Shown: positions 3,695 through 32,000 of the stretch, one piece after another
Layout of the letters: every line of letters starts with the position of its first letter
How positions within the stretch are numbered: position 1 is the stretch's first letter
Assembly: GCF_003010495.1 (NCBI RefSeq)
Contig: NZ_CP027570.1
Coordinates: 1,980,001-2,012,000, forward strand
Length of the DNA: 32,000 nucleotides
Source of the DNA: Megasphaera elsdenii DSM 20460
Lineage (GTDB): Bacteria; Bacillota; Negativicutes; Veillonellales; Megasphaeraceae
Reading direction: 5' to 3'
Translations under genes and position numbers: made by a program
The notes under the pieces: model-generated
The model's database searches: none
Told to the model about the DNA's origin: nothing
Seen by the model: only the letters and a program-made list of their open reading frames with translations

Positions 3695-3697
3695 TGC

Positions 3698-8193: not shown

Positions 8194-8203
8194 AAGGAGT
8201 TCA

Positions 8204-10787: not shown

Positions 10788-10792
10788 TTCTA

Positions 10793-14566: not shown

Positions 14567-14615
14567 TGGTCCTATGTCAAGATTTCGGACAAATTAAATT
14601 GAGGTTTTTCGTTTC

Positions 14616-15530: not shown

Positions 15531-15808
15531 TTGTCCAGAATGCTGATAGCTTTTTTTAGGACATTCAACGCATCCTTCGCATCCCGCAGTTCACGCTGCA
15601 GACGGGCGATTTCCTTAGCTTCATCCGAAGCATAGTTGCCGGAACCACGATAAGGCATTTCGCCATTGTCCTTCAGCTGCTTTTGCCAACGGGACAAGGT
15701 TTGTGGAGCAATACCTAGATTCGTAGCACAGCCAACCAAGCCGAGTTCCCGATGTTCATGATAATATTTAACTGCGTTGATTTTGAATTCTTTGTTGAAT
15801 TTTGCCAT
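15527..15808 (-). CDS. IS3-family transposase OrfA (copy 2)
   Basis: Predicted product identical to that of 5009..5290. Confidence 0.9.
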   Translation of the reverse strand: MAKFNKEFKINAVKYYHEHRELGLVGCATNLGIAPQTLSRWQKQLKDNGEMPYRGSGNYASDEAKEIARLQRELRDAKDALNVLKKAISILDK

Positions 15809-15888
15809 ACTGAGGCCTCCTTAGTTAATCCTATTGTACCACCATTAGGAACCTCAGTTTGACTTGTCCTATTTATATGCTAACACCA

Positions 15889-17745
15889 TGGTCTAAGCCA
15901 ATCCCAAAAGCTCCCCAAGCATTAACTGTTAATACCGAGTTCCAAGGGTTGCTTATTTCTTACAGCCCTATTCCCGAAGACTGTATCGGTATCTGTATCT
16001 CTATTAACGGGGAAAAACATTTTACCTCCGATGATTCTTTCCATTACTACTGTGTCATGGGGGATTTTACGGTCAAGGCTGCTTATTATGATTGCTTTGG
16101 GGAGGGAACGTGGACTAAAGAACAAACTGTCAGTCTTGTGACTCTGGTGGACCCGGCTTGGTTAAAGAGGGAAAGTATTACGCTAGAAAAAGTTGACAAG
16201 AGCATACAAACAGCCGTAAAAGATGCTCAGGATAGTGTAACAGGAATCGCGGAGCTTAAAACGACTACAGATTCCATCTCATCTACTGTTTCCTCGAATA
16301 AAGCTGCTCAGGACGCCCAAAACAAGAAGTTTGTTTCTCAGATTTCCCAGACAAGCTCCCAAGTTTCCTCCGTTGTTACAGATTTGTCTAACGCTAAAAC
16401 AGATTTAAGCAATACCAAGGCACAGGTGAACAGTAATTATACAGCCATCCTCCAGAATCAAAACGATATTGCTCTAAGGGTAAAGACTGGAGAGCTTATC
16501 CAGCAAATAAACCTATCGAAAGAGGGGGTTGCGATAAATGGTAGCAAGGTTCATATTACTGGAGAGACTGTGTTTGATAACGGTGTAATCGTATCTTCGT
16601 ACCTTGGTGACAAGCAGATAGTTGGGACCAAGATTGCTGACGGAGCTATTACGACCGGAAAATTGTCGGCAAATAGTGTCACAGCAGGAAAGTTGGCTTC
16701 TAACTCAGTGACGACTGACAAGATTGCGGCGGGAGCTATTAAATCAGATAAACTCGACACAGGAGCGGTTACAGCGGACAAAATCAAGGCTGGGGCTATT
16801 ACTGCTGATAAACTCACTTCCGGTGCCGTAACCGCTGATAAGCTAGCCGCCAATACGATTAATCTGGCAGGAGCTTTAAAGATTGTTGGCGGTAACGTTA
16901 CACTGGACGAAGACGGTATGACAGTCAAAGAAACAAATGGGAGTTCCGTTCTGTTTGGTGAAAATGGTATGTCATTTGTCGATAGCAATGGTCACACGTT
17001 TTCAGGTATTGGGAGATTTTGTACAGGAATCGTGAACGACGGCCAGACTGTTAAATTCGCTAACCCGTGGGACATCACTCCAACCGTCTTTTTATTCCCT
17101 ATAAGACTACAAACTTCGGCTGTTGGGTACACCAATATCAATATGTATCAAGACGTAGAAGCCATTAATGTGTCGGCTAATGGGTTCACCGCAGTTTGTA
17201 AATCGGTTTTGAAAGCTGGTAGTGGCTCTAATATCCCAGTTTCATGGGAATGTCGTGGTAGTAATGAAAACCCAGGCGGCAATGGTAAAAATGAAAGTTA
17301 TAAATATAACATTAACGTCCCAACGTCTGCCACCCATATTTGGATTTCCATAGAAATCTCTGCCTTTTATCAAAGCTATGTTCGGGTAGGCAAAAATGAC
17401 TATCACGCGTTTGTCGCTTGGGACGAAGGGTCTGTTTCTGTTTCGACAAACACTGGTGTAAGTGAAGCCCGTAACAATTGTGTTAATGGATATGATGGGC
17501 AAAGTGCAGGGGAAGATACTTATAGTCACTATAAAAGAGATACCAAGAGTTTTACGTTTGACATGGACCTCTCACATGTTTCAACTGTAACGGTTACATT
17601 TTCGTTTAGCGGGGCATGTGATTCTCGGTCGTATGGAAAAATACTATCATACCGTACTAACCTAAATTCTGATGTCACGGTTTGTAGAGGGACAGCTGGC
17701 TTTATTGCTATTGACCCGAATACAGTTCCTTACACTATTTCATAG
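15889..17745 (+). pseudogene. 5'-truncated tail / minor structural protein (C-terminal about 619 codons)
   Basis: The reading frame enters directly from the IS end. The phage-derived part starts mid-domain (WSKPIPKAPQALTVNTEF...). It then has a coiled-coil-like Ser/Thr/Gln region, seven decapeptide repeats and a C-terminal beta-rich domain. The first 10 codons of ORF 15859..17745 are IS sequence. Confidence 0.7.
16636..16845 (+). repeat. seven tandem 30-nt (decapeptide) repeats inside the tail protein
   Basis: ADGAITTGKL / SANSVTAGKL / ASNSVTTDKI / AAGAIKSDKL / DTGAVTADKI / KAGAITADKL / TSGAVTADKL. Confidence 0.85.
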
Positions 17746-20732: not shown

Positions 20733-22244
20733 CTGGCTAAACAAGTAGGAAAATCAAAAAGGGTCAAAGAGTTTGATGTTGGCTCTCTGGTCGGAGGGAT
20801 GGATGTAGCCACTGACCCCTGGCTCCTTCATTCAAAAGAAAACCGGGCCCAAGTTATTGAGAATATGGAATTCGATGCAGAGGGGGAACGCCTCATATCT
20901 CGTCGAGGATTAGGCTCTCCACTCTATACATTCCCGGCTGATATTTTTTATATCTGGTACGACTACGGATTGAATAACTATATCGTTTTCCTAAAAAATA
21001 AAAATGTGTATACTTACGAGTTCGGTAAGACCCCGACGTTCATAGGAACCATTAACGGAGATGTTACCCATAAACCACAACTAGCTAGGTTTACAAACGC
21101 AAACGGGACAAAATTACTTATTTCGAGTGGCTCAAAATTGCAATACTACGAATATAGCGGTACGAGTATAAATACCAATGAACAGATGCCAGAATGTGAC
21201 GAAGTTATGGAACGGTTTAGTCGTGTTCTTGTTACTCACTCTAGCACGAATAATATAAAATATTCCGGAGTCCTTGACCCAATGAACTGGACAGAAAACA
21301 GTAACGACGCATCCGCAATGAAAGATTTGGATGTAGGCGACGTTTCAGCTGTAGTTGGAATTTACCCCTTGGCCTCTGAGCTGATCGTCTTCAAGGCTAA
21401 TGGTCGTATATATAAAATAGCTAATGAACCGGAAGATTGGAATGTCACTTTGGTTGGAACGGATAGTGATTTTATCGCCCGGGACGCTATGACTAACCTT
21501 GGGGAAGATGTTGTTTATTTCTCTCGGCAAGGGCTTAGGTCACTCCAGACCACAGAAACATATGGCAACTTCAAATCGCAGGAAATCGGGGAAGCCATGA
21601 ATCCAGAAATGAAAAAGGATACAGGGGCCCCATGGCTTTTCAAGAGTCAGAGAACGCATCAGCTGTTTGTCAATCCAAACAATGGCCCGGTAATCTATGT
21701 ATATCATTACCAACTTGGAGCTTTTACAAAGTGGATTTTCCCCAAACCTATCCAGACAATCGCCGAGGGGACAGAAAAGACCTTAGTCGGATGTGGGAAA
21801 GAGCTTTTTGAATTATCATCATCGAATCATACAGACGTAGTGGCAGGAACAGAGACTAAAATTCACCAGAGAATCGTTTCCGCTATCCTCGGTGATTTAA
21901 ATGTCATGACATTATACCGCTCCCATCTCATTATAGATAGTGAAGATGCAGGCACAGCCAAACTCACGGTTAATGACGTGTCTTGGGATTGGAACTGGAC
22001 AAAAGAAAAACAGAGAGAAGAGTTTAAGACGCAAATAAGAGCCGATAAGATGACTTTTACCTTCGAGACAGATGATATTATTGTATGGCATTTATGGGCC
22101 GCTGTTATCGTCCAGCAATACGTAACAATGACATCGGAGGGAACATCCTCCGGGAGAGGAAGTAGCTGGAGTAAAGGTAGTAGTTGGGGCCAAGGTACAT
22201 TCGATGGTTCGGTCAGTGATTCAGATGGGAGTCCTTATGGTTAA
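20733..22244 (+). CDS. virion structural protein (about 503 aa); possible CTG start, otherwise ATG at 20799
   Basis: ORF 20799..22244. The frame is open back to the stop at 20730-20732. A CTG at 20733 lies 5 nt after AGGTGA (20722-20727). The ATG at 20799 has GGAGGG immediately adjacent, with no spacer. Confidence 0.7.
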   Translation: MAKQVGKSKRVKEFDVGSLVGGMDVATDPWLLHSKENRAQVIENMEFDAEGERLISRRGLGSPLYTFPADIFYIWYDYGLNNYIVFLKNKNVYTYEFGKTPTFIGTINGDVTHKPQLARFTNANGTKLLISSGSKLQYYEYSGTSINTNEQMPECDEVMERFSRVLVTHSSTNNIKYSGVLDPMNWTENSNDASAMKDLDVGDVSAVVGIYPLASELIVFKANGRIYKIANEPEDWNVTLVGTDSDFIARDAMTNLGEDVVYFSRQGLRSLQTTETYGNFKSQEIGEAMNPEMKKDTGAPWLFKSQRTHQLFVNPNNGPVIYVYHYQLGAFTKWIFPKPIQTIAEGTEKTLVGCGKELFELSSSNHTDVVAGTETKIHQRIVSAILGDLNVMTLYRSHLIIDSEDAGTAKLTVNDVSWDWNWTKEKQREEFKTQIRADKMTFTFETDDIIVWHLWAAVIVQQYVTMTSEGTSSGRGSSWSKGSSWGQGTFDGSVSDSDGSPYG

Positions 22245-22608
22245 TACGAAAGATGTATTGTTCTACATAGAAAAATATGATAAGAAGTTGAAATCTCACT
22301 TCTTTGAAGATTGGGATTTAAAGAGGTTCCCGTTCGTGCTATTAATGCCGGACGGGAGCTTTTCTACATACGGTGTTAAGCCAGACGCTATAGAGATTGG
22401 GCCAACCAGTGGACATCTCAGAACAATGCTGACCATCTACGAGGGAATGGCAAGGCACATTGGTATAGCCAAGCTTAGGACATTCACGACGAGAAATCCT
22501 ATAGCTTACGCTAAACTTAGTGGTGCCACTCTGGTGGATTCGATTGAAGAATATGGCCAGCCCACGGAATATATTTTTGAAAAGGAGGTTTTAAATGGGG
22601 AAAAGTAA
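22237..22608 (+). CDS. hypothetical virion protein (123 aa)
   Basis: The ATG at 22237 overlaps the upstream stop. GGGAG lies 6 nt upstream. Confidence 0.65.
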   Translation: MVNTKDVLFYIEKYDKKLKSHFFEDWDLKRFPFVLLMPDGSFSTYGVKPDAIEIGPTSGHLRTMLTIYEGMARHIGIAKLRTFTTRNPIAYAKLSGATLVDSIEEYGQPTEYIFEKEVLNGEK

Positions 22609-23284
22609 GACTGAGTACCACGAAAGACCGTTGTCACCGGAAGAAAGACAACTTTATGCACAGCAGGTCCAGTATATGCAAACCATCCAACCCGGGATTG
22701 ACGCCTTAATTGCTAAAGGGATGTCTAACATTAAGAAAACATACGATCCAGACTGGGGAAAGGTGTTTGATACATATTCTAGCAATATTCAGGACATTCT
22801 TGACCGACAGGCCAACCTTCTCGATGGAAATTTACCTTCCCAATGGCAGACGGCCAGACAGAATTACTATAACCGGTTATATGAAAATACCATGGGACAG
22901 GGCCTTCAGCAGATGGCTAAGAATGGGGTTGTTGGTAGTTCTCGAATGAATACGGCGACAAACGATTGGCAGAAGAACCTGTCAGCTCAGATGAGTAAAG
23001 ATTACACAAATGACGTGAACCTCTATAATAATCTTCTCAATACCCGTGAAAGCTGGTTGCAGAACGGATTCAATACACAAGCACAAGCAGCCGAACAGAG
23101 CCGCAGACAGGCTACGGACTACTTCAATGCTGCTAGAGGTACTCAGCAATCGAATACAGCGGCCCTTTCGGCTATCGGTAATAACGAAAACGGCCGTGGC
23201 TATCTCACACAGTCAGGCGGTGGCTTCGGTAACTTATTGGGCGGCTTAGTTGATATGGGTAGCAGTTTCTTCGGTAGACGATAG
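22595..23284 (+). CDS. internal-virion-like protein (Gln/Asn-rich, Gly-rich C-terminus)
   Basis: The ORF overlaps the previous gene by 14 nt. Its composition resembles podovirus ejection or internal proteins. Confidence 0.65.
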   Translation: MGKSKTEYHERPLSPEERQLYAQQVQYMQTIQPGIDALIAKGMSNIKKTYDPDWGKVFDTYSSNIQDILDRQANLLDGNLPSQWQTARQNYYNRLYENTMGQGLQQMAKNGVVGSSRMNTATNDWQKNLSAQMSKDYTNDVNLYNNLLNTRESWLQNGFNTQAQAAEQSRRQATDYFNAARGTQQSNTAALSAIGNNENGRGYLTQSGGGFGNLLGGLVDMGSSFFGRR

Positions 23285-23295
23285 GAGGCAAGTAG

Positions 23296-24060
23296 ATGTT
23301 ATATATCCCAAATGATAAAACGTCTGACCCTCGGTACAACCTTGGGCAGATTGCCGGTCTTGCTTTAGGTAAAGCTTATGAAGCTAGAACATCTCGTGAG
23401 GCTGGGAAACAGGTTCAGAATCAGAGAGCCAAAGAGGCTTATGATATCCAGAATCAGCAGAATCAAGCTCTTCAAGGAGCTTACAACGCATATATTCAAG
23501 CCAAACAGAAAGAACAGGATGAAGGCCAGTTAGCGGCAAAAAATTATAATGATAACCCAACCCCTGAAAACTTCCAGAAGTTAGTCGACTTCGTTCATAA
23601 AGTTCATCCCGGAGCTGAAATCAATAATACGGCTATGACGGATGCACTTAATTATTCAAAGAGTGGCCAATCGGCCTCCTTGCAACCATACCGTCAGGCG
23701 GCAATGAGTGCGGCACAGGTTATCAATCCTTATGTAGATTTCTCTTCCTCTGATTGGGGGACGGATACCTATAACATGGGGTTGAACCGAGCCAACTATA
23801 CAAAGAACTTTGAGGAATCGAATAAAGGTAAGACCATTAATGGGAAGGGCGATAAGAAGTACCGGGAGTTCGTAGATTATAATAGTACCAACCCGTATAA
23901 TGCAGGAATCCAAGGCCCCTTACAGCCGAACCTTCCTCAAGCACAGCCTTTGAACTTGAAACTAAATACACCGAGCCCGACCCCTATGACTTTACAGGAT
24001 GCACAGCCTCTTGGTAATTATTTTAACTTTGGTGGATTACAAAAGTATGTCAATCAATAG
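23296..24060 (+). CDS. internal-virion-like protein (Gln/Asn/Pro-rich)
   Basis: ORF preceded by AGGAGG. Confidence 0.65.
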   Translation: MLYIPNDKTSDPRYNLGQIAGLALGKAYEARTSREAGKQVQNQRAKEAYDIQNQQNQALQGAYNAYIQAKQKEQDEGQLAAKNYNDNPTPENFQKLVDFVHKVHPGAEINNTAMTDALNYSKSGQSASLQPYRQAAMSAAQVINPYVDFSSSDWGTDTYNMGLNRANYTKNFEESNKGKTINGKGDKKYREFVDYNSTNPYNAGIQGPLQPNLPQAQPLNLKLNTPSPTPMTLQDAQPLGNYFNFGGLQKYVNQ

Positions 24061-24069
24061 GAGGAATGA

Positions 24070-25053
24070 ATGGCAGGATATGCAAGTTACATCGTAGATG
24101 CAGCCAATCAATATGGGATAGACCCGAATATTGCTCTTGCTATCGCTGCTCGTGAAACTGGTGGCGACGACGTAAACGCAATCAATATGGCTGACGGTGG
24201 CGGTTTAATGCAGATTACCGACGGTTCAGCCGCAGACTATGGGGTTAATGACTTATACCCTGACTGGGCCACGGACCCCCAACAGAACGCCTTAGGTGGT
24301 ATGCTCATTCTAAAGAAAAAAATTGATGAACAAGGTGGGGACGTATGGGCTGGGGTTAGAGCTTATAACGGAGCTGGCCCGATGGCTGACCAGTATTTGG
24401 CTCAGGTACAGCAGAACTATAACAATCTGGGTGGTTCAGGAAAGGGTACGTTTAACTTTCAAGCAAAAGATGCGCAGAATCGTCCTTTCTTAAATATCCT
24501 GACACACTTGCGAACGAGCGACCCAAACGAGCCTTTTGACTACAAAAGCATCTCTGAAATCATGGCTCAGTCTAATCCAGATGTGCGGAACGCTATTGAT
24601 GCCCAAAAGCTGACAAGTCGGGATTATGTCAACGATACGAACTTTATGAGTCCAGACGTAGCCAAGCTGGTTAGGCCGACATCTCAGACTTTGATGCAGA
24701 ACCGTATCGATGAAATCAAGGATAACATGGGTCAGCAGATGCTCCAGGATAATTTACGAAAGGGAATCAGTGCTATCAACCTAATTAATAAAAGTAACAA
24801 CGTAGACAATAAAGGGATGTACTCTGGGTTAATGAAATCTATTGGCATTGATGTTCCCAGTAACGTCGACCAATACGCTAATAGCGGGGATATGCTCGAT
24901 AGCATGATACAGGACGCAGAGAACGACCGGAAATATAATATGCAGGTACAGAAAGCGCAATTCGCACAACAGCAAAGAACAGCCCAGCAGGGGCTTTTAC
25001 AGGATAAATTGAATCACATGAATAAAATGTATTCCATGATGGGAGGTGCATGA
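24070..25053 (+). CDS. virion-associated lytic transglycosylase (SLT domain) with C-terminal module shared with the next gene
   Basis: AARETGG (catalytic Glu), GLMQI and RAYNGAG motifs. Confidence 0.8.
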   Translation: MAGYASYIVDAANQYGIDPNIALAIAARETGGDDVNAINMADGGGLMQITDGSAADYGVNDLYPDWATDPQQNALGGMLILKKKIDEQGGDVWAGVRAYNGAGPMADQYLAQVQQNYNNLGGSGKGTFNFQAKDAQNRPFLNILTHLRTSDPNEPFDYKSISEIMAQSNPDVRNAIDAQKLTSRDYVNDTNFMSPDVAKLVRPTSQTLMQNRIDEIKDNMGQQMLQDNLRKGISAINLINKSNNVDNKGMYSGLMKSIGIDVPSNVDQYANSGDMLDSMIQDAENDRKYNMQVQKAQFAQQQRTAQQGLLQDKLNHMNKMYSMMGGA

Positions 25054-26423
25054 GAATCTCTTATGCAGATGGCTTCTTAGGCCAGACGATGAAGAATGGC
25101 ACTAATGGATGTGCGGAAGCTGTCGGCCTTATGGGGGCCGGTAACAGCCAATTCCTTGCTAACGAGTATAATAATGGTCAATATTCAGTTCCCGGTATGG
25201 TGTCCGACGCCCAGCAGGCCGGAATCCCGGTCATCCCTTACCAAGCAGGAGCAGCTAACCCCAATGATGTAATCGTGTACGGGGACAATGACCACGTTGT
25301 TCTATCTGATGGTAATGGTGGTTATTACGGGAACTCTAGCTCACAGAACCAGATCGTACACGGTAGTGACGCTACGCAAATGGGAGGACTTCAACCGACG
25401 GCTATCATTAAAACCGGTGGCCAAGGTGGCAGTTTCAATTTCCAAGCCAAGGATGCGAACGGGAACCCATTCATTAATTTAGCCGCGAAAATCAGGACAA
25501 GTAATCCGAACGAACCATTCGACCAACAGAGCCTTATGGACATATTGTCTCAACCGACTCGTTCATATGCCCATGAAAAACGAATCCATTACCTGACCGA
25601 CCGAGATTATCAGGGAGACCTTTTGTTCTTGAATCCAGATGTAGCCCGATGGATGAAAGACAGCGCTAAACAACTGAATGATAATCGTGACGCAGATTTA
25701 AAAGAACAAATCGACCAAGCAAACCAGCAGACTAGGTTGAAGCAGGCTATGCAGTTAGCACAGCTTATTAACGGGAGCGGCAGTGTAGATAATCGACGTG
25801 GTTACGCGGCTATGGCCAAGATGTTTGGGATTAATTTGCCGACGAATGATGACCAATTCGTTAATAGCAGTGACCTCTTAAAGACACAGGTACAAATGAA
25901 TAATGCTGAACGGAACTATAACTTCCAGCAACAGCAGGCTAAACAGGCACAGGATAACTGGCAGAAGGAATTCGACCTCAAGAAAGCAATCCAAGACCGA
26001 CAGGCTCAAATCGAAGAACAGAGATTGGCTCTTGCCGCCGCTAGAAGTGCTGGTGGCGGAAGTAGATATGGAGGCGGAGGCAGTTCAGGTAAGGGACCTC
26101 ATTACTCCATTGGGGATATTGCAAAGATTAAAGAAACTCTCAACGCTCCGTTCCAGCAAGTATACGATGCCGCCGCCGATGGTAGTATGTCTGGTGATGA
26201 AATTAGAGAAGCTCTCAAGAACGCTGAGTACGAAAATATCAATACCTTGTCTATGCTTGAACCTGACGGTGGCCCGGGCAGTGCATACGGGCAAGAAGTA
26301 GAAGATAACTATGTGAACAAATTGAAGGATAAATTCGGGGAAGACTTGAGTGACCAAGAACATACATGGACAAATAACCCGATTACAAGAACACTTCATG
26401 ATATTTTCCCTAGTGTATTTTGA
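25050..26423 (+). CDS. putative Cys-His peptidase/amidase (papain-like) with the same C-terminal module as the SLT protein
   Basis: N-terminal NGTNGCAEAVG ... DNDHVVLSDGNGGYYGN (Cys/His pair). The C-terminal FNFQAKDA...RTSNPNEPFD...DRDY...NPDVA...VDN...NSSDLL segment parallels residues of the 24070 product. Confidence 0.6.
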   Translation: MRISYADGFLGQTMKNGTNGCAEAVGLMGAGNSQFLANEYNNGQYSVPGMVSDAQQAGIPVIPYQAGAANPNDVIVYGDNDHVVLSDGNGGYYGNSSSQNQIVHGSDATQMGGLQPTAIIKTGGQGGSFNFQAKDANGNPFINLAAKIRTSNPNEPFDQQSLMDILSQPTRSYAHEKRIHYLTDRDYQGDLLFLNPDVARWMKDSAKQLNDNRDADLKEQIDQANQQTRLKQAMQLAQLINGSGSVDNRRGYAAMAKMFGINLPTNDDQFVNSSDLLKTQVQMNNAERNYNFQQQQAKQAQDNWQKEFDLKKAIQDRQAQIEEQRLALAAARSAGGGSRYGGGGSSGKGPHYSIGDIAKIKETLNAPFQQVYDAAADGSMSGDEIREALKNAEYENINTLSMLEPDGGPGSAYGQEVEDNYVNKLKDKFGEDLSDQEHTWTNNPITRTLHDIFPSVF

Positions 26424-26441
26424 TTGATTAGGAGGGGTTAG

Positions 26442-29400
26442 ATGGCAGGAAGAACTACAGAAGATTATCTTCAGGCCTTATACGATAGAGCCGAAGCAAA
26501 TGACCAATACCTCGATAGCGTCATTGCCCCGGATGATGGGGGGACGTATGATTCCTTCGGTGACGGTGGTTTTTTAGATTCGGCTATTAACGGTGCTCTC
26601 AACGGGTTAGGGTCTAGCCTCGGTTCTATCGGCACTTACATGAATCAGGAATTTGGGTTTGGACAAGGCCTTGAGGATTTTGGGGATGCCATTTCACAGG
26701 GCAGGCAGGCAAGACGGCAGTTCACCCGTAATGATCGCCTCTTTGACTTTATCACAGACCCGAATGGTCTTACATATACAGCTTTTAATCTTGTAGGTTC
26801 TTCCGCCCCTGACTTAGCTGTCACTGGCGCTGTTGGTGCCGCTACAGGTGGTATTGGAGGAGCGGCTGTAGGACTTGGTTTAAAAGCGGCCAAGGCCGCA
26901 AGATTGGCCAAGACCGCTTCTTCCTTAGAGAAAGCAATTGCCGTAGGTACAGACGCTAGTGAATTGAGTACGGGGGCAAGGATTGCCAGAGCCGCCTTCA
27001 ATGCCGCTCCAGAAATAGCCGGTAACGTAGCTGGTGGCTATCTTGACGCCGCATCAGAAGCAGGTGATACATACAATCAGGCTATCCAGAACGGGGCTAC
27101 TCAAGAAGAAGCTCGTAATGCTATGGATACTGACTTCATGGATAACATCGGTATGTCAATTGCCTCCAATGCTGTTGAAATGGGAATGTTCAAAGGGGCC
27201 GCAAATGCTCCGAAGAGACTCCTCAGCAGTGCGACAGAATCTACCGAACAGAAAGCTGGAGAGGGCTTGCTTGGTTCCTTATCCGATTTTGGGGGTAAGG
27301 TAGCAGACTTCGCAGACAAGAGGTATTCTACTAGGGTTCTTGCTCATAGCGTTCCCGGAATGGCAGTAGAGTCCTATACAGAAGGCCTACAGAATGAATT
27401 CCAAAACAGTTCCATTACTGGAGAAGATGTTAATTATAATCCTCTCGAAATGGGAGATGAATCTAAAGACCAAATGTTTATGGCTGGCATGGGTATGATT
27501 CCTACAGGTCTCCTTGGCGGGATTGGCCATCGCAGAGCAAGAAGAGTATCCCCGGCTGACGAGGTTAGTAATCCTGTTGAAGTGGTTAATAGTCCGGTCG
27601 AAGAAACGGTTAGAAATACTCCGAATACCATTCAAGAGGAATCTCCGATTAGAGAAGATGTTCCGGTTACAGAAAATATTCCAGTTGATGAAACTGAACT
27701 TACTCAACAGGATTTGGATGCTATCCCGATGAACTCACAAGAAACAACGGCCCCTCAGCAAGTTGACGCGTCCTTAGTACAGGCAGGACCTAAAGACTTT
27801 GCCCAACAGCTCATAGACAAAATGAACAACCCTACGGAGTATGACTTAGCTGAACAGGAAGCTTACGGGAAGAGTGACAACCAGTACCAAGCTAACCAAG
27901 CTATTGCCAACCTGATTGATACCGAAGATGGAAACGTCCTTGGATACAACCCGGTACACGGTACGTCTATGATGACAGGCCCGGAACGGGACGACCTCGT
28001 TAAGGCCATGATAGAATCGCCAAATCTACCAATCATCTCTGACAGTAAGAGCGCACAACCAGTAGCCGCTATCCTCCAGCAACGGAATAATGACCGTTAC
28101 CGTCAAGCTACAGCCCAAAGTCTTATTCAGAAGAAAAATGAGTTAGGGCTTCCTATTTCCCAGCAGGAATTAGATAACGCTAATAGCATTTCTCCGAATA
28201 CAGGATTTTTCCCGGCACAGCGCAAAGAAATCCATGTGCAGGAAGTAGCGAACCGAAAGGCAGATAGAGAACAACACACACAGAATATAGCTACTGCCGT
28301 AAGTGCTATCCAAGAGGATATTAAGCAGAACGGGGTTTATAGCGATTTCTATAAACCTAAGAGCGGAGATATTTCTGATGCTGGTAAAGCACGTCTCAAT
28401 AAACTCGGAGTTACCCCTGATGACGCCGGTATCTCTAAAGTTTTAAGAACAAATTCGGCATCCGCAACACGTTCCTACGAATTACAGAAGAAAGAAAAAC
28501 AGAAGGCTACAGAACAGGTTATCAAAGATGATTTCTTGAAGAATGGGGTTCACTCTAAGTACTACACATCCGATGGTAAATTCGATTCGCTCCCCAATGA
28601 GGTAAAACAGGAAATCACTAAAGGAGCTGGTGGGGAAGTCACTCATGCAATCCGCAACCAGATTCAAACCTTATCTGGGAAAGCTCGTGCTGAAGATAGG
28701 GTCAAGACGCAGACTATCGCCAATAAAAAGAACCATATGGATACGGTTCAACGTATCAATTCCAGCCGTGAAAATAGAGGAGTTACGCTTGACGCTAAGA
28801 AAATGGAAGGTTTGTCTGCCAAGGAACAGCGCCGTCAAATCGAGATGGCTAATGCCCAGATTGCCAAGCGGAATAGGATTGCTGAAGTAGATGCTGTCCG
28901 AGGCTTTGAAAAACAGCGTATCGATAAATCCCATGAAGTAACTATTGAATCTCCATTTGCTCAAAAATTATCTCAATATGCAAATAAAGGCAGAGATAAA
29001 GAAGCTATTACCGAACTCCACAACTTCACAGAAAACTTCTTTAATTATAAAAAGGGCCTCAGTATGAGCCGCCTCCTGTCTAAGTTCCCTAAGAAATACC
29101 GCGAATCCGTCAAGGAAGCTGTTACTTCATACGTAAATGCCCGCACTCAAGATAAATACAATCCTCAAGACCACATCCAGAACATCGAGCAGAAGGTAGC
29201 TGAAGTAGATAGACAGGCAAAGCAGGTATCCGACGAAAAGAATAGAGAACGGGCACGGAGAAGTTATGAAAATAAAAAGGAAATCCAGAAGGCAGAACCT
29301 AAACCGGTACAGGGCAGTGCTCAGGATTTATTGAATATCATGTCAAAAGTCCAAGATGACGAAAGCAAATCAAAGCCAGAAGCAAAACCTGTCAAGGAAC

Positions 29401-32000
29401 TCTCCGGAGCTACAAAAGCCAAAAAGACAAGGGCTGCGCTCAATGAGGCGAAACCAAAAGGGAAAGAAGAAGAAATAAAAACTGTTCGTTCCGCTGGGAA
29501 GGCTCTTGCTAAGGAAATTCGTGGTAAGCACCTGGCTAAAAACGACCCTATCCACTATTTCCTCCATCACGAAGAACTTGAAAAGAAATACGGGGAACGT
29601 GCCGCCACTCTTAGTGGTAAAAATGCTTCGTTTGTCACTGTTGAGGATGGCAAAAACGTTAGGAAACCATATAGAGGGGAATACTTCCAAACAGGAAATC
29701 ATAGAGAACCACTTGTCCCTTCCATTGTTAACTGGGTTAATGATGGACCTGTCAAAGTAGCAAGAGCCGTAAATTTCCCCGGAGATAAAGCTCTCCAAAA
29801 TCTTGTGGAATCAGGGCAATACACACAAGAAGAAGTAAGTAAGGCTAAGACCGAATATGAAAAATACAAGAAACAAGCAGATGACGAAAAAGCAGAGGCT
29901 CAAGCTGAAACAAAAGAGAGGAAAGCTAGAGAAAGTGAAAATAACGCAGGTACATATTTAGCAAACACAAAAGAAAAAAGAATAACCTCTTCAGAACCTT
30001 TATCTTATAAGTACGAAGACGGAATGATAACTTCTTCTACCTCCGATATGGACGTTAAAATCCCTAACGGTGAAATTGAAGCATTCGGTGGAGATAAAGT
30101 GAAGTTAAAAGATGCCGATAAGCAGGATATTGCAGATTATCTCTCAGACTATTATAATATAGATACAGAACCGGATAACATCAAGGTTACGAAGGAAAAT
30201 GAAGTCCATGTCACAGATGCTTTCCGCTATTTCTTCCCGGACGATGTATCTAAAGATATTTTCAATCGCCTCGGCGAAGAAGACCAGAAGAAATTCCTTG
30301 CAGACGGATACGAAGTGAAAGGAGAAGATAAAAATGTACAGACCGACGAAACTACCTCCGATGCCAGAGGGAGTAACGGACCCGAGCATTTGGAGGGGGA
30401 TGTGGTGCAACGGAATTCTTACCCTCCCAGAAGGAATGACGCAGGAAGAAGTGGACAAGAAACTCTGGGAAGGAGACAAAGAGTTTCTGGACAAGTACAG
30501 CAAGCCAGTAGGGGGCTTGGACCCGAATATCGATTAACCAAACTCGGTAACAAACTAAAGAAAGCCATCCATTTGGCAACTCCAGAAGGAGTAAGTATCG
30601 ACGCACCCACTTTAAACAAATTAATAAATGACTCATTTGGAGATTTATCACCACGGTTGCAATCGAAAATTGCGGAAGCTCTTGACGATATGGCAACCGT
30701 GTTTATTTATGATGGGGAAAAAGAAAAGACCGGAGCTCTCGGTAGAACCTATTCTGAATATAACGTAATCAGAATTTTCAAAGATGCATTATCCGGGGAT
30801 AAAAGTACACCTACCGTACTCCATGAAACTATTCACTCTCTCCACGCCGCTATTGAACGTGGATTAGGGGATAAAGAATACGGGATTAATTACATCACGT
30901 CTAATAATTTCGTTGATAAAGAAAAAGACCAGTTAGAGGATTATAGGATTGAATATACAAACAGATTGATTGAGCAACTCCGCGAAGGAGAAGGTTTTAC
31001 CAATAGCTGGAGAATCTTAGTATACGACCATACCATAAGGAACCCCAAAATAGTTGATTATGTATGCGATAAAATATCTAAGAGTAAAACTTTACAAGAA
31101 TCATTAAAAAAGAATAAGGAATTATACGACGAACTTTTTGTAGCTAAAACTTTATCTCAACTTCAATTAGCATCAAAATATCCTCAATACAAATCCCAGT
31201 TAAAAGGTGTGGAAGACAGAATCATTGATATGGCAAACAAAGCGGTCGACGGAGCTGGGACATTGAGCTCTGCTAGAGCCTCTATATTGGAAAAGGCGAA
31301 GGTTCTGAAACCATTCTCAAACGGTACTTTCACAGATAAGGCTGTTAAAGCTTTTCTGAACTTTGTAGAAAATAGAAATACCCCATCCGCTGATGCTATG
31401 TCTATTAAGGAGCGTATAGATAAACAACTACACAAGGTCGGTATTCCCACTCACGAAGAAACAGCTCAAAGAGCAGCCCTGTATGCCGCTGGTGTCCTTC
31501 CGGGTAAAGAACGTATGAGTATCCTTCAGCGCCAATTTGAAGACCCCCTTCATATCTTCAAAAAATACTTCCCTGATGGTATGCCTATCTACCGGTTAGC
31601 AGATGGAGCCCGCCGCAAGATGGAAAAGTTCGTTGGAGATTACTCCCAGAAATTCTTGGACGTATTCAAAGGCCTCGATAAAGATGAACGGAAGGTATTC
31701 GACTCCCTCGTTTTGAAAGCCAATGAAATGCACCGAGACCCTATGCAGGTCATTAACCTTGACGATGGGATTCACCTCGCAGTCCGTCATGACGCCTTTA
31801 TTGAACATTACGATAGCGCTCCTGAAGCTATTAAAAAGATTCAGGAAATCCGTAACTCTGGTAAATATCGTCTGTCCAAGATGATTCAGGAGTCGGAAGA
31901 AAACGAAAACGCTGGATTCGGCAAAGGCTTCACAGTATTTGCTCTCCCTAAAGGCAGTGCCGCTTTCAAGTCTGAAGATGCCGCCCAGAAGTACGCAAAA
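26442..32000 (+). CDS. giant virion/ejection-type protein (at least 1853 codons, 3' end outside the window) with Gly/Ala-rich hydrophobic N-terminal segment and a zincin HExxH motif
   Basis: The ATG at 26442 lies 5 nt after AGGAGGGG. I translated the frame by hand to position 32000 and met no stop. It is missing from the ORF track because it has no stop in the window. Contains VTGAVGAATGGIGGAAVGLGL (about 26820-26880) and VLHETIHSLH (HETIH at 30822-30836). Confidence 0.8.
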   Translation, partial: MAGRTTEDYLQALYDRAEANDQYLDSVIAPDDGGTYDSFGDGGFLDSAINGALNGLGSSLGSIGTYMNQEFGFGQGLEDFGDAISQGRQARRQFTRNDRLFDFITDPNGLTYTAFNLVGSSAPDLAVTGAVGAATGGIGGAAVGLGLKAAKAARLAKTASSLEKAIAVGTDASELSTGARIARAAFNAAPEIAGNVAGGYLDAASEAGDTYNQAIQNGATQEEARNAMDTDFMDNIGMSIASNAVEMGMFKGAANAPKRLLSSATESTEQKAGEGLLGSLSDFGGKVADFADKRYSTRVLAHSVPGMAVESYTEGLQNEFQNSSITGEDVNYNPLEMGDESKDQMFMAGMGMIPTGLLGGIGHRRARRVSPADEVSNPVEVVNSPVEETVRNTPNTIQEESPIREDVPVTENIPVDETELTQQDLDAIPMNSQETTAPQQVDASLVQAGPKDFAQQLIDKMNNPTEYDLAEQEAYGKSDNQYQANQAIANLIDTEDGNVLGYNPVHGTSMMTGPERDDLVKAMIESPNLPIISDSKSAQPVAAILQQRNNDRYRQATAQSLIQKKNELGLPISQQELDNANSISPNTGFFPAQRKEIHVQEVANRKADREQHTQNIATAVSAIQEDIKQNGVYSDFYKPKSGDISDAGKARLNKLGVTPDDAGISKVLRTNSASATRSYELQKKEKQKATEQVIKDDFLKNGVHSKYYTSDGKFDSLPNEVKQEITKGAGGEVTHAIRNQIQTLSGKARAEDRVKTQTIANKKNHMDTVQRINSSRENRGVTLDAKKMEGLSAKEQRRQIEMANAQIAKRNRIAEVDAVRGFEKQRIDKSHEVTIESPFAQKLSQYANKGRDKEAITELHNFTENFFNYKKGLSMSRLLSKFPKKYRESVKEAVTSYVNARTQDKYNPQDHIQNIEQKVAEVDRQAKQVSDEKNRERARRSYENKKEIQKAEPKPVQGSAQDLLNIMSKVQDDESKSKPEAKPVKELSGATKAKKTRAALNEAKPKGKEEEIKTVRSAGKALAKEIRGKHLAKNDPIHYFLHHEELEKKYGERAATLSGKNASFVTVEDGKNVRKPYRGEYFQTGNHREPLVPSIVNWVNDGPVKVARAVNFPGDKALQNLVESGQYTQEEVSKAKTEYEKYKKQADDEKAEAQAETKERKARESENNAGTYLANTKEKRITSSEPLSYKYEDGMITSSTSDMDVKIPNGEIEAFGGDKVKLKDADKQDIADYLSDYYNIDTEPDNIKVTKENEVHVTDAFRYFFPDDVSKDIFNRLGEEDQKKFLADGYEVKGEDKNVQTDETTSDARGSNGPEHLEGDVVQRNSYPPRRNDAGRSGQETLGRRQRVSGQVQQASRGLGPEYRLTKLGNKLKKAIHLATPEGVSIDAPTLNKLINDSFGDLSPRLQSKIAEALDDMATVFIYDGEKEKTGALGRTYSEYNVIRIFKDALSGDKSTPTVLHETIHSLHAAIERGLGDKEYGINYITSNNFVDKEKDQLEDYRIEYTNRLIEQLREGEGFTNSWRILVYDHTIRNPKIVDYVCDKISKSKTLQESLKKNKELYDELFVAKTLSQLQLASKYPQYKSQLKGVEDRIIDMANKAVDGAGTLSSARASILEKAKVLKPFSNGTFTDKAVKAFLNFVENRNTPSADAMSIKERIDKQLHKVGIPTHEETAQRAALYAAGVLPGKERMSILQRQFEDPLHIFKKYFPDGMPIYRLADGARRKMEKFVGDYSQKFLDVFKGLDKDERKVFDSLVLKANEMHRDPMQVINLDDGIHLAVRHDAFIEHYDSAPEAIKKIQEIRNSGKYRLSKMIQESEENENAGFGKGFTVFALPKGSAAFKSEDAAQKYAK

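What the first reader, a model, noticed from the sequence alone, without database searches (positions are those of the whole stretch)
26442..32000. Giant ORF (at least 1853 codons, still open at the window edge) after the peptidoglycan hydrolases: candidate injected polyvalent protein
The ORF track omits this frame because it has no stop in the window. It follows internal-virion-like genes and two cell-wall hydrolases, which is a podovirus-like ejection-protein position. It has a Gly/Ala-rich hydrophobic segment near the N-terminus, long charged low-complexity linkers and a zincin HExxH motif (GRTYSEYNVIRIF...TPTVLHETIHSLH). The motif context resembles the metallopeptidase module described in large phage polyvalent proteins. 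Most of its length matches nothing I can recognise, so it could contain novel effector domains delivered into the host.
Basis: partly seen in the sequence, partly recalled or inferred. Interest (0 to 1): 0.7.

Follow-up and report, generated by a model that had tools for sequence, protein, structure and literature searches.

The report
Giant phage virion "delivery-scaffold" protein
The giant open reading frame is real and encodes the first two-thirds of a ~2,690-residue protein of a Megasphaera prophage, a very divergent member of the giant "PLxRFG / DarB-like" phage polyvalent-protein family that is probably packed in the phage head and ejected into the host, although here the part that normally carries known enzymes is uncharacterised.

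Summary
Window 26442-32000 is one open frame of 1853 codons with a strong ribosome-binding site and dN/dS of about 0.1. Orthologues show the full protein is 2,663-2,726 aa.

It matches no Pfam, PHROG, NCBIfam or PDB sequence model. Profile searches resolve three parts:
- a conserved Gly/Ala-rich N-terminal module (aa 1-370);
- a variable, charged middle of about 1,000 aa with no known domain;
- a conserved C-terminal super-module of about 1,250 aa that begins with an invariant HExxH.

The C-terminal module sits at the extreme C-terminus of more than 1,500 protein clusters, many of 3,000-5,855 aa. A sample of these carries hallmark polyvalent-protein domains (ART-PolyVal, ddrB-ParB, LPD1/3/5, PBECR, helicase, methylase, lysozymes). 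It is homologous to the PLxRFG region of the 4,433-aa protein of podovirus LASTA.

The related phage has a podovirus-like gene layout, with the giant gene last in the virion block, after an SLT gene and before the lysis genes. The tape-measure and virion-RNA-polymerase readings are rejected. A predicted-structure resemblance to T7 gp16-type internal core proteins is only a lead.

The family and position fit, but no effector domain is identifiable and injection is not shown. The window's copy lies in an element that has lost its head genes next to an IS element.

The parts
26430..26437 (+). Shine-Dalgarno sequence AGGAGGGG, 4 nt upstream of the ATG at 26442
   Evidence: sequence read directly
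26442..32000 (+). Giant ORF: first 1853 codons (about 69%) of a protein of about 2,690 aa. It runs off the window edge.
26442..27551 (+). Conserved N-terminal module (aa 1-370). It is also found at the N-terminus of 26 of 146-148 more distant proteins that carry the C-terminal module, including proteins of 3,000-5,342 aa.
26739..26921 (+). Gly/Ala-rich, mildly hydrophobic segment (aa ~100-160; GxxxG-like runs) inside the N-terminal module
27579..30461 (+). Variable, highly charged middle region (aa ~380-1340). It has no recognisable domain and no internal repeats, and is under purifying selection. It occupies the position that holds effector 'cargo' domains in relatives.
30573..32000 (+). Start of the conserved C-terminal super-module of about 1,250 aa (HExxH region, helical region, PLxRFG-like motif, C-terminal domain). 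Only its first ~475 aa lie in the window.
30603..30896 (+). Putative minimal zincin core (aa ~1388-1485). Predicted order: helix, helix, two strands, HExxH helix, helix.
30822..30836 (+). HETIH (aa 1461-1465). His, Glu and His are invariant in the family.
31527..32000 (+). First ~158 aa of the best-conserved C-terminal module (P0001 1690-2692). The PLxRFG-equivalent motif GYFPQIHLPYVV (P0001 1911-1922) and the widely shared last ~300 aa lie beyond the window.
24070..25053 (+). Context: SLT lytic transglycosylase gene (327 aa), two genes upstream
25050..26423 (+). Context: 457-aa protein of unknown function directly upstream, syntenic in all relatives examined
20799..24060 (+). Context: block of four co-directional genes (481, 134, 229 and 254 aa) between the tail fibres and SLT. 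The first has a weak amidase-like match. They are putative internal virion proteins by position only.

Best explanation
The ORF encodes a virion-internal 'delivery scaffold' protein of a temperate, podovirus-like Megasphaera phage. It is a very divergent member of the giant PLxRFG / 'DarB-like' phage polyvalent-protein family. It has three parts. (1) A conserved Gly/Ala-rich N-terminal module. (2) A variable middle of about 1,000 aa that, in relatives, is filled with effector enzymes but here is a charged region with no known domain. (3) A conserved C-terminal super-module of about 1,250 aa that starts with an invariant HExxH (a putative minimal zincin peptidase), continues through a PLxRFG-type motif, and ends in a domain with a conserved hydrophobic helix. 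Proposed mechanism, all of it inferred. The two conserved end modules direct incorporation into the capsid interior and passage through the portal and tail at infection, alongside the neighbouring SLT transglycosylase and small virion proteins. The Gly-rich and hydrophobic segments engage the envelope, in the way podovirus ejection proteins such as T7 gp14-16 do. The HExxH domain cuts the polypeptide, in the head or after ejection, to free or activate the middle region. What is shown: the ORF, its selection, the module map, homology to polyvalent-protein scaffolds and to LASTA's PLxRFG protein, HExxH invariance and fixed position, the podovirus-like layout, and prophage status in M. elsdenii.
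For: The ORF is real and constrained. Full-length orthologues are 2,663-2,726 aa, including Megasphaera elsdenii and M. hexanoica genome records. In M. elsdenii the element is integrated next to lepA/hemN.

The module map comes from distant homologues.

The C-terminal module is shared with an ART-PolyVal protein: hhalign probability 97.2%, E 4e-11. An exhaustive profile search finds 1,562 cluster representatives at E<=1e-3 and 237 at E<=1e-30. In 133 of 146 of those held locally, the module ends within 60 aa of the C-terminus. Their lengths have a median of 2,737 aa and a maximum of 5,855 aa.

A sample of 20 of these carries ddrB-ParB, ART-PolyVal, LPD1/3/5, PBECR1/3, ResIII/Helicase_C, Eco57I methylase, Phage_lysozyme2 and Glucosaminidase.

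There is collinear homology to the C-terminal ~870 aa of the 4,433-aa 'PLxRFG domain-containing protein' of Klebsiella podovirus LASTA: HMM E 1e-27; hhalign probability 96.4%. LASTA's GPYFPLARFGDYFV corresponds to the invariant NGYFPQIHLPYVVWV.

H, E and H of the HExxH are invariant. An HExxH is present in 162 of 189 family proteins of at least 1,400 aa, at a median of 1,239 residues from the C-terminus (interquartile range 1,202-1,274), preceded by a 95%-conserved Gly and a hydrophobic strand.

The N-terminal module lies at the N-terminus of 26 broader members of 1,889-5,342 aa.

The intact relative has this layout: TerL, portal, scaffold, major head protein, four small ORFs, 738-aa tail protein, fibres, small proteins, SLT, 451-aa protein, giant protein, GH25 lysis genes, DnaE. 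No tube, sheath or tape-measure gene is present.

LASTA is a podovirus by electron microscopy (PMC10052179). An analogous giant 'DarB-like' protein in the same gene position was found in purified virions of podovirus JC1 with 51 unique peptides (PMC9144972).

The AF2 model of P0001 1372-2571 (pLDDT 77, pTM 0.63) gives 42 significant matches in the viral predicted-structure library. These are C-terminal chunks of giant polyvalent proteins, plus ~1,300-1,500-aa podovirus proteins named 'Internal virion protein D' (CRP-5, E 1e-9) and 'putative internal core protein' (RSB3, E 1.7e-3).

Iyer et al. 2017 (PMC5512222) define polyvalent proteins, their MPTase hub domain and its proposed autoproteolytic role.
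Against: No effector domain is identifiable, so 'polyvalent' is not demonstrated for this protein.

Pfam MPTase-PolyVal and the NCBIfam PLxRFG model do not match it. The literal PLxRFG motif is replaced by P-Q-I-H-L-P.

The third zinc ligand is not evident in this subfamily. The 'EE..AD' helix that is common in the broad family is missing from its alignment.

No solved zincin or any other PDB structure is matched significantly.

The only mass-spectrometry-validated giant proteins (JC1 gp69 / Bcep22 gp75) are not detectably homologous to this C-terminal module. N4 vRNAP is not either.

The gp16 resemblance rests on predicted-versus-predicted structures with low TM-scores (0.2-0.4). It has no sequence-profile support. 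The solved PhiM1 ejectosome chain scores only E 0.74.

The window's copy lies in an element lacking terminase, portal, scaffold and head genes, so this particular copy may no longer be deployed.
Confidence: 0.55

Rival explanations
1. It is a purely structural internal-core or ejectosome protein, a functional analogue of T7 gp16 with long extensions. It builds the DNA conduit across the diderm Megasphaera envelope and carries no host-directed effector. The HExxH serves only maturation, or is a structural metal site.
For: No effector domain was found. The gene sits at the gp16-like position after an SLT gene. The structural matches include 'Internal virion protein D' and 'internal core protein' entries. 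The cargo-less, HExxH-less ICP2 protein 006 shows weak collinear similarity and the same motifs. Conserved Gly-rich and hydrophobic segments are present.
Against: The same end modules flank obvious effector enzymes in many relatives. This argues that the scaffold's general role includes delivering cargo. The middle ~1,000 aa are under purifying selection yet diverge quickly between lineages, which is typical of conflict-facing parts. There is no sequence-level link to gp16.
Confidence: 0.27
2. This copy is a relic. The window's element is a defective prophage, and the giant gene, though still intact in the window, is no longer used.
For: About 25 kb carrying TerL, portal, scaffold, the major head protein and the 5' end of a tail gene is missing exactly at the second IS3-family copy.
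Against: The frame has no stop in 1853 codons and is 92% identical to full-length orthologues. dN/dS is 0.10. The missing block could be an assembly collapse across IS copies, or the genes could lie elsewhere in the genome. This rival concerns this copy only, not what the protein is.
Confidence: 0.1
3. It is a tape-measure protein of a long-tailed phage.
For: It is very long, largely helical and charged, with Gly-rich hydrophobic segments, and a peptidoglycan hydrolase gene is nearby.
Against: No PHROG or Pfam tape-measure match exists. The intact relative has only four small ORFs between the head protein and the tail/fibre genes, with no tube, chaperone or sheath genes. The gene lies after the fibres, next to the lysis genes. 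Homologues of the C-terminal module occur in phages shown to be podoviruses (LASTA) or classified in a podovirus family (ICP2, Zobellviridae). The family spans 1,400-5,855 aa with enzyme domains inside.
Confidence: 0.03
4. It is a virion-packaged RNA polymerase (N4 gp50-like or crAss-like), or a P1 DarB-type methyltransferase-helicase antirestriction enzyme.
For: Its size and late-gene context fit. N4 vRNAP also contains an HExxH (HELVH 2228) and is classed as a polyvalent protein (PMC5512222). Relatives are often auto-annotated 'DarB-like'.
Against: No polymerase, methylase or helicase domain is found by Pfam, PHROGs, NCBIfam, PDB profiles or the structure searches. There is no similarity to N4 vRNAP beyond the HExxH register.
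Confidence: 0.03

Closest known systems
'PLxRFG domain-containing protein' / 'DarB-like antirestriction protein' of Lastavirus podoviruses (Klebsiella phages LASTA, SJM3, SopranoGao; 4,433 aa). Similar genes occur in Serratia phage Parlo, Agrobacterium Atu_ph08, Sinorhizobium PBC5 and Pseudomonas Itty13.
   Same: There is collinear homology over the C-terminal ~870 aa, including the PLxRFG-motif region. An HExxH lies 400-450 aa upstream of that motif in both. Both are the last gene of the virion block, after tail fibres and small proteins. Genome sizes are similar, about 60-66 kb.
   Different: Identity is too low for BLAST or the NCBIfam model to detect. The motif is FPQIHLP instead of FPLARFG. 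The protein is 1,700 aa shorter and lacks the helicase/methylase-type cargo. LASTA lacks the N-terminal module. The host is a Negativicute. The function of the PLxRFG region is uncharacterised in the literature.
Phage-type polyvalent proteins (Iyer, Burroughs, Anand, de Souza and Aravind 2017, J Bacteriol; PMC5512222)
   Same: It is a giant late-gene protein with a central HExxH 'hub'. Its C-terminal module is shared with proteins carrying ART-PolyVal, ddrB-ParB, LPD, PBECR, helicase, methylase and lysozyme domains. A packaged-and-injected logic is proposed for the class.
   Different: No recognisable effector domains are present here. Pfam's MPTase-PolyVal does not match. The shared N- and C-terminal 'bookend' modules have no Pfam model in the copy searched.
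T7 gp16-type internal virion protein D and podovirus ejectosome proteins (T7 gp14/15/16; RSB3 ORF42; PhiM1 ejectosome 8VB2)
   Same: The gene position is the same: last large internal-protein gene, next to an SLT activity and the lysis genes. The protein is largely helical. There are predicted-structure matches to RSB3 ORF42 (E 1.7e-3) and to a CRP-5 protein named internal virion protein D (E 1e-9).
   Different: There is no sequence-profile similarity. The SLT is a separate gene here rather than the N-terminal domain. The solved PhiM1 chain is not matched significantly (E 0.74). TM-scores are low. The protein is twice the size.
Bcep22 gp75 / JC1 gp69 giant 'DarB-like' virion proteins of Lessievirus podoviruses
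   Same: The synteny is the same: tail fibres, virion proteins, giant gene, lysis genes. Both have a single HExxH about 1,050 aa from the C-terminus. JC1 gp69 is virion-associated by mass spectrometry.
   Different: It is not detectably homologous to the N- or C-terminal modules. Only the G-strand-HExxH register aligns weakly.
N4 gp50 virion RNA polymerase
   Same: It is a giant, packaged and injected protein with an HExxH in the part needed for encapsidation (PMC5512222).
   Different: There is no polymerase domain here, and no detectable homology of the end modules.

Membership tests
Phage-type polyvalent proteins (Iyer et al. 2017) | Several (2-15) distinct effector, enzymatic or DNA-binding domains in one polypeptide | tested here: not met
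   Pfam, PHROGs and NCBIfam find no domain in the window ORF or in full-length P0001, P0059 or P0061. Only the HExxH region is interpretable.
Phage-type polyvalent proteins (Iyer et al. 2017) | Shares homologous modules with proteins that carry hallmark PolyVal domains | tested here: met
   The C-terminal module matches the ART-PolyVal protein P0079 with hhalign probability 97.2%. In a 20-protein sample, ddrB-ParB, ART-PolyVal, LPD1/3/5, PBECR1/3, helicase and methylase domains occur. BFVD matches include entries named LPD-, MuF-C- and ART-PolyVal-containing.
Phage-type polyvalent proteins (Iyer et al. 2017) | Encoded with late/virion genes of a portal-terminase phage | tested here: met
   The intact relative has TerL, portal, scaffold, MCP, tail, fibres, SLT, then the giant gene and lysis genes. 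In the window itself the head genes are missing.
Phage-type polyvalent proteins (Iyer et al. 2017) | Packaged in the virion and delivered into the host | not testable with these tools
   Only analogy is available: JC1 gp69 was found in virions by mass spectrometry, but that protein is not detectably homologous.
MPTase-PolyVal / zincin metallopeptidase | HExxH on a helix, invariant across the family | tested here: met
   H1455, E1456 and H1459 (P0001 numbering) are invariant. An HExxH is present in 162 of 189 long family members at a fixed distance from the C-terminus. In the AF2 model it lies on helix 81-97 with pLDDT about 85.
MPTase-PolyVal / zincin metallopeptidase | Three-stranded sheet with an N-terminal helix before the HExxH helix | tested here: inconclusive
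   The model gives two helices and two strands before the HExxH helix, but pLDDT is only 48-64 in the strand region. A conserved Gly and a hydrophobic strand lie upstream. Coordinates could not be inspected.
MPTase-PolyVal / zincin metallopeptidase | Third zinc ligand (Glu) on the following helix | tested here: inconclusive
   The broad family has an 'EE..AD' motif (E in 57-66%) 30-50 residues downstream. This protein's subfamily shows a gap there, and no invariant acidic or His residue.
MPTase-PolyVal / zincin metallopeptidase | Match to the curated model (Pfam PF18818) or to a solved zincin | tested here: not met
   There is no Pfam match at E<=0.1-1, and none among the 20 relatives at 1e-4. 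The PDB profile search gives only sub-threshold zincins: protease C at E 0.14, Ste24p at E 1.9. Foldseek against PDB gives nothing at E<0.5. hhalign to the N4 and Bcep22 HExxH regions gives probability about 20%.
PLxRFG domain proteins (NCBI naming) | Match to the NCBIfam model | tested here: not met
   NCBIfam finds 0 families for P0001, P0059 and P0061 at E<=1.
PLxRFG domain proteins (NCBI naming) | Homology to the PLxRFG-containing C-terminal region of an annotated member | tested here: met
   Against LASTA QIW86628: hhalign probability 96.4%, E 1e-9. The broadened HMM gives E 1e-27, collinear from LASTA 3568 to 4373 and spanning PLARFG at 3750.
PLxRFG domain proteins (NCBI naming) | The motif P-L-x-R-F-G itself | tested here: not met
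   The equivalent position reads F-P-Q-I-H-L-P-Y (P0001 1913-1920). The broad-family consensus is G-Y-x-P-H-x-F-H.
T7 gp16-type internal virion protein D | Sequence homology to gp16 | tested here: not met
   HMM and hhalign against T7 gp16 and RSB3 ORF42: probability about 2%, about 6 bits. Profiles against PDB sequences give no ejectosome chain.
T7 gp16-type internal virion protein D | Fold similarity | tested here: inconclusive
   BFVD: RSB3 U3TK92 at E 1.7e-3 and the CRP-5 'Internal virion protein D' at E 1e-9, but TM-scores are 0.2-0.3. The solved PhiM1 ejectosome chain 8vb2_A scores only E 0.74 and 1.7 in two searches.
T7 gp16-type internal virion protein D | N-terminal lytic transglycosylase domain in the same polypeptide | tested here: not met
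   The SLT is a separate 327-aa gene two genes upstream.
Tape-measure protein | Lies between tail tube/chaperone genes and distal tail genes; matches a TMP family | tested here: not met
   There are no TMP hits and no tube or chaperone genes in the intact relative. The gene follows the fibres and precedes the lysis genes. Homologues occur in podoviruses.
N4-like virion RNA polymerase | Single-subunit RNA polymerase domain | tested here: not met
   There are no polymerase hits by any sequence or structure search and no homology to N4 gp50.
P1 DarB | Methyltransferase plus helicase domains | tested here: not met
   Neither domain is found in this protein. They occur in some relatives only.

The most novel reading that the evidence does not exclude
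The conserved end modules form a previously undescribed, very widespread delivery chassis for giant phage proteins. The chassis is a Gly/Ala-rich N-terminal module plus a ~1,250-aa HExxH-PLxRFG-C-terminal super-module that has no Pfam model and no solved relative. The C-terminal super-module would be a distant structural relative of podovirus gp16-type ejectosome proteins: it anchors the protein in the capsid core and threads it through the envelope. The positionally fixed zincin would cut cargo free after ejection. On this reading, the ~1,000-aa charged middle of the Megasphaera protein is a new kind of cargo directed at a diderm Firmicute host.
Probability: 0.25. Interest if true: 0.75.

Novelty: new variant of a known kind. 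Interest (0 to 1): 0.5.

Why it matters
Giant polyvalent proteins take up 15-25% of many phage genomes, yet how they are packaged and delivered is unknown. The literature calls the 'PLxRFG' region uncharacterised.

This analysis shows that a protein invisible to every curated model still carries the family's conserved ends. Across more than 1,500 protein clusters, an HExxH sits at a nearly fixed ~1,240 residues from the C-terminus, while everything upstream varies from nothing to about 4,500 residues of enzymes.

That gives a concrete and testable architecture of chassis plus cargo, and a candidate link to podovirus ejection proteins.

For this window specifically, it assigns a role to about 8 kb of otherwise unannotatable prophage DNA in Megasphaera, a gut and rumen genus with almost no characterised phages.

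Tried and rejected
1. Direct annotation found no family. This covered Pfam, PHROGs and NCBIfam on the window ORF and three full-length homologues, phmmer and profile searches against PDB sequences (A1, A7, A9), and megablast/tblastn against INPHARED phages and PLSDB plasmids.

2. The first AF2 model of the C-terminal module used only 5 sequences. It was poor (pLDDT 57.5) and its PDB fold search was noise.

3. The N4 vRNAP link was rejected: hhalign probability below 1% for both ends.

4. Homology to Bcep22 gp75 was not detectable. Its virion mass-spectrometry evidence is therefore only analogy.

5. Sequence homology to T7 gp16 / RSB3 ORF42 was not detectable.

6. The last large-database search, with the N-terminal module profile, returned one fragment only, because Gly/Ala-rich words saturate the candidate filter.

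7. tblastn of a compact family member (P0091) against phages found no match.

8. Two scans of GTDB representative genomes found no relatives.

9. A search for internal repeats in the middle region found none.

10. The context of the ART-PolyVal relative P0079 was uninformative, as its neighbours are unannotated.

11. Rfam and tRNA scans of the window found nothing.

12. Model coordinates are not exposed, so the metal-site geometry could not be inspected.
Full report
**1.

- Window 26442-32000 (+) translates without a stop for 1853 codons. The other five frames of the same stretch contain 53-191 stops. From the window's composition (43% G+C, 6.2% stop probability per codon), the chance of such a run is about 1e-52.
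- The ATG at 26442 is preceded by AGGAGGGG at 26430-26437. The upstream gene ends at 26423.
- Against the 83%-identical orthologue in viral contig L001, dN/dS is 0.10 overall and 0.04-0.18 in each 150-codon block. The whole frame, including its poorly conserved middle, is therefore a constrained coding sequence.
  - a Gly/Ala-rich, mildly hydrophobic N-terminal stretch (aa 101-150: 44% G+A);
  - a long charged middle (30-44% K/R/D/E);
  - HETIH at aa 1461-1465.
- The neighbouring SLT transglycosylase (24070-25053) is solid (Pfam E 2.6e-14). The 'second hydrolase' is only a weak PHROG amidase match at 20799-22244.

**2. Full length and host**

- The large protein database returns 75 relatives. 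Fifty-five or so are full-length at 2,663-2,726 aa and 66-92% identical over the whole query. About 840 codons therefore lie beyond the window. Most come from viral-type contigs of about 65-69 kb.
- Two relatives come from NCBI genome records of Megasphaera elsdenii and M. hexanoica.
- In the M. elsdenii contig the element is integrated. After the giant gene come a GH25 endolysin, an HNH gene, DnaE and an HTH repressor-like gene, followed by chromosomal lepA and hemN. The phage is therefore temperate and its host is a Negativicute, a diderm Firmicute.
- No relative is present in GTDB species-representative genomes, in INPHARED phages or in PLSDB plasmids at BLAST sensitivity.

**3. No curated model sees the protein**

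- Pfam, PHROGs, NCBIfam and PDB sequence searches found nothing. This holds for single sequences and for profiles, on the window ORF and on full-length homologues.

**4. Module map**

Comparison with the distant homologues (30-50% identity) resolves the modules below. P0001 numbering is used; window numbering is +6 after about aa 400.

| Part | Residues | Character |
|---|---|---|
| N-terminal module | 1-370 | Conserved, Gly/Ala-rich |
| Middle | ~400-1650 | Poorly conserved and charged; only H1455, E1456 and H1459 and one glycine are invariant |
| C-terminal module | ~1690-2692 | Well conserved; about 42% identity even in the distant homologues |

Only the first ~158 residues of the C-terminal module are inside the window.

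**5. What the C-terminal module is**

- A profile of the module found a 1,176-aa protein with a Pfam ART-PolyVal domain. Its C-terminal 370 residues align to the module with hhalign probability 97.2% and E 4e-11.
- An exhaustive HMM search of 1.84 billion cluster representatives found 1,562 proteins at E<=1e-3 and 237 at E<=1e-30.
  - Most match the last ~300 residues of the module.
  - In 133 of 146 representatives held locally, the match ends within 60 residues of the C-terminus.
  - These proteins have a median length of 2,737 aa. Thirty-one exceed 4,000 aa and the longest is 5,855 aa.
- A Pfam scan of 20 of them found ddrB-ParB, ART-PolyVal, LPD1, LPD3, LPD5, PBECR1, PBECR3, ResIII/Helicase_C, Eco57I methylase, Phage_lysozyme2 and Glucosaminidase. 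This is the repertoire that defines the 'polyvalent proteins' of Iyer et al. 2017 (PMC5512222). No Pfam model covered the shared module itself.
- tblastn with one such C-terminus against cultured phages hit genes annotated 'PLxRFG domain-containing protein' or 'DarB-like antirestriction protein'. The phages have 55-63 kb genomes and infect Klebsiella, Serratia, Agrobacterium, Sinorhizobium, Pseudomonas, Microcystis and Vibrio.
- For Klebsiella phage LASTA (4,433-aa protein), homology to the Megasphaera module is robust and collinear over about 870 residues: hhalign probability 96.4%; broadened HMM E 1e-27.
- The eponymous motif aligns as well. LASTA GPYFPLARFGDYFV corresponds to the invariant NGYFPQIHLPYVVWV.
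- The literature calls the PLxRFG region uncharacterised.

**6. The HExxH**

- His-Glu-x-x-His is invariant in every alignment made.
- Across the broad family, 162 of 189 proteins of at least 1,400 aa have an HExxH at a median of 1,239 residues from the C-terminus, with an interquartile range of 1,202-1,274. Total lengths range from 1,435 to over 5,000 aa.
- The motif is preceded by a 95%-conserved glycine and a hydrophobic strand. In most of the broad family it is followed by an 'EE..AD' helix motif that could supply the third zinc ligand. In this protein's own subfamily that motif is not evident.
- A second AF2 model was built for P0001 1372-2571 with 53 sequences (pLDDT 77.2, pTM 0.63). It puts the HExxH on a confident helix preceded by two helices and two less confident strands. 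This is compatible with a minimal zincin as described by Iyer et al..
- Membership could not be confirmed:
  - Pfam MPTase-PolyVal does not match.
  - A PDB profile search gives only sub-threshold zincins.
  - Foldseek against PDB finds nothing.
  - The alignments to the HExxH regions of N4 vRNAP and Bcep22 gp75 share the same register but have only about 20% probability.
- I therefore treat 'zincin peptidase' as well motivated but inferred.

**7. The N-terminal module is also a shared end piece**

- It occurs within the first 181 residues of 26 of the broader representatives, whose lengths are 1,889-5,342 aa.
- The family architecture is therefore: conserved N-terminal module (in a subset), then variable cargo, then HExxH, then PLxRFG-type region, then the C-terminal domain.
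- In the Megasphaera protein the cargo position holds about 1,000 charged residues. These have no repeats and no recognisable domain, and are under purifying selection.

**8. Genome context and tail type**

- Walking along the related 65,985-bp viral contig (pieces L005, L182, L084, L001) gives this gene order:

  TerL → portal → 345-aa protein → scaffold → major head protein → four small ORFs → 738-aa tail protein → fibres → small proteins → SLT → 451-aa protein → giant protein → small ORFs and GH25 endolysin → DnaE

- There is neither space nor a match for tube, sheath, chaperone or tape-measure genes. The layout is podovirus-like, with the giant gene where T7 has gene 16.
- LASTA is a podovirus by electron microscopy. 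ICP2 is a Zobellviridae podovirus.
- In Bcep22-like podoviruses a giant 'DarB-like' protein in the same position is virion-associated by mass spectrometry. That protein is not detectably homologous to the modules studied here, so it counts as analogy only.

**9. Fold-level lead**

- The second model has no significant match among 350,542 PDB chains; the best E is 0.55.
- It has 42 significant matches in the viral predicted-structure library.
  - The best are C-terminal chunks of giant phage proteins named after helicase, methylase, LPD, MuF-C, ART-PolyVal or nuclease domains.
  - The list also contains ~1,300-1,500-aa podovirus proteins:

| Protein | E-value |
|---|---|
| 'Internal virion protein D', Roseobacter phage CRP-5 | 1e-9 |
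| Vibrio phage ICP2 protein | 3e-7 |
| Celeribacter phage P12053L protein | 1e-6 |
| 'Putative internal core protein', Ralstonia phage RSB3 | 1.7e-3 |

- The RSB3 protein does lie in the gp16 position of an Autographiviridae genome.
- ICP2 protein 006 sits at the distal end of its virion block. It shows weak collinear sequence similarity and the same three motifs, but has no HExxH.
- Evidence against over-reading this:
  - TM-scores are 0.2-0.4.
  - There is no sequence-profile similarity to T7 gp16 or RSB3 ORF42.
  - The solved PhiM1 ejectosome chain appears only at E 0.74 and 1.7.
- The gp16 connection is a lead, not a finding.

**10. Rejected readings**

- *Tape measure.* There are no family hits, the gene is in the wrong position, no tube genes are present, and homologues occur in podoviruses.
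- *N4-like or other virion RNA polymerase, and P1 DarB-type enzyme.* No polymerase, methylase or helicase domain was found by any method, and there is no homology to N4 gp50.

**11. Most likely mechanism, with steps marked**

- Shown:
  - a real, constrained giant gene at the end of a podovirus-like virion block of a temperate Megasphaera phage;
  - end modules homologous to those of bona fide polyvalent proteins;
  - an invariant, positionally fixed HExxH.
- Inferred:
  - the protein is packed inside the capsid and ejected at infection together with the SLT enzyme and the small virion proteins;
  - the conserved ends mediate packaging and passage, or envelope insertion;
  - the HExxH domain processes the polypeptide to release the middle region;
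  - the middle region acts on the host or on incoming DNA.
- I put about 0.55 on this reading. I put about 0.27 on the narrower alternative that the protein is a purely structural ejectosome component without effector cargo.

**12. State of this particular copy**

- The window is collinear with the related phage except at three places.
  - The first IS3-family copy (4046-5377) is a clean insertion.
  - An intein with a LAGLIDADG domain is present in nrdD.
  - At the second, near-identical IS copy (~14560-15868), about 25 kb is missing. The lost block comprises TerL, portal, scaffold, the major head protein, the small connector-size ORFs and the first ~250 codons of the tail protein gene.
- Either the element is a defective prophage or the assembly collapsed across IS copies. 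This does not change what the protein is, but it bears on whether this copy is still deployed.

**13. Novelty and score**

- Giant PLxRFG / DarB-like polyvalent proteins are known and auto-annotated, so the kind is known.
- This is a divergent variant. It is invisible to every curated model, has an altered motif, has a cargo region without known domains, and occurs in a host group with almost no characterised phages.
- I did not find the following general points described in the papers I read. I consider them the most useful outcome:
  - conserved N- and C-terminal end modules;
  - an HExxH fixed about 1,240 residues from the C-terminus in more than 1,500 clusters;
  - no Pfam model and no solved relative;
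  - a possible structural link to podovirus internal core proteins.
- Interest is 0.5.

Noticed in passing
window 4042-5377 and 14560-15868: There are two near-identical direct copies of an IS3-family insertion sequence (99-100% identity over the 300-nt reference). Each has orfA (93 aa, HTH_Tnp_1) and orfB (304 aa, rve integrase core) on the minus strand. Copy 1 is a clean insertion relative to the related phage contig.
   Followed up: yes
window ~14173-16549 (junction at IS copy 2): About 25 kb present in the related 65,985-bp phage contig is absent here. The missing block holds TerL, portal, scaffold, the major head protein, four small ORFs and the first ~250 codons of the 738-aa tail protein. 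The window's tail ORF 15859-17745 aligns from its residue 10 to residue 258 of the intact homologue. This is either a defective prophage or an assembly collapse across IS copies.
   Followed up: yes
window 11573-14200: The anaerobic ribonucleotide reductase gene nrdD is in two ORFs (11573-12193 and 12392-14200) with a ~200-nt gap that is also present in the relative. The second ORF carries an intein with a LAGLIDADG endonuclease (~12759-13739) that the relative lacks. No Rfam family, such as a group I intron, is detected in the gap.
   Followed up: partly
L001 19832-23725; L191 21400-25090: The phage-encoded DNA polymerase III alpha (DnaE) carries an intein with an HNH endonuclease in the IMG/VR relative (1,297 aa). 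In the M. elsdenii prophage it is intein-free (951 aa) with a free-standing HNH gene just upstream. Homing elements appear to be mobile among these phages.
   Followed up: no
L191 25337-28079 (M. elsdenii GCA_016899685.1, contig JACJJB010000003.1): The right end of the prophage lies next to an HTH repressor-like gene and the chromosomal lepA and hemN genes. This shows that the phage group is temperate and suggests an attachment site near lepA.
   Followed up: partly
window 8162-8893 and 10784-11332: The phage encodes an N6/N4 DNA methyltransferase (Pfam E 2.6e-28) and a radical-SAM NrdG-like activase (weak Fer4_12 match) upstream of nrdD.
   Followed up: no
L182 9338-11491 (portal) and the loci: The portal protein of the related phage has at least 79 relatives at 55-88% identity in IMG/VR contigs of about 60-70 kb. 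This points to a large, uncultured clade of similar-sized phages in gut, oral and rumen metagenomes.
   Followed up: no
P0001 2452-2475 (beyond the window): This is the only strongly hydrophobic helix of the protein (FLVPMFIMAGALGMPCANLV). V, P, G, G and P within it are invariant, and it is followed by conserved Gly-rich loops (YGAPSLAGINLSGNIGLGD). It could be a membrane-insertion or oligomerisation element of the C-terminal domain.
   Followed up: partly
PDB entries 8vb2_A and 9sfn_G: Podovirus internal virion or ejectosome chains recur just below significance in three independent searches: Foldseek E 1.7 and 0.74, and HMM E 0.78. Each is individually meaningless, but they are consistent with the BFVD matches to internal core proteins.
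   Followed up: partly
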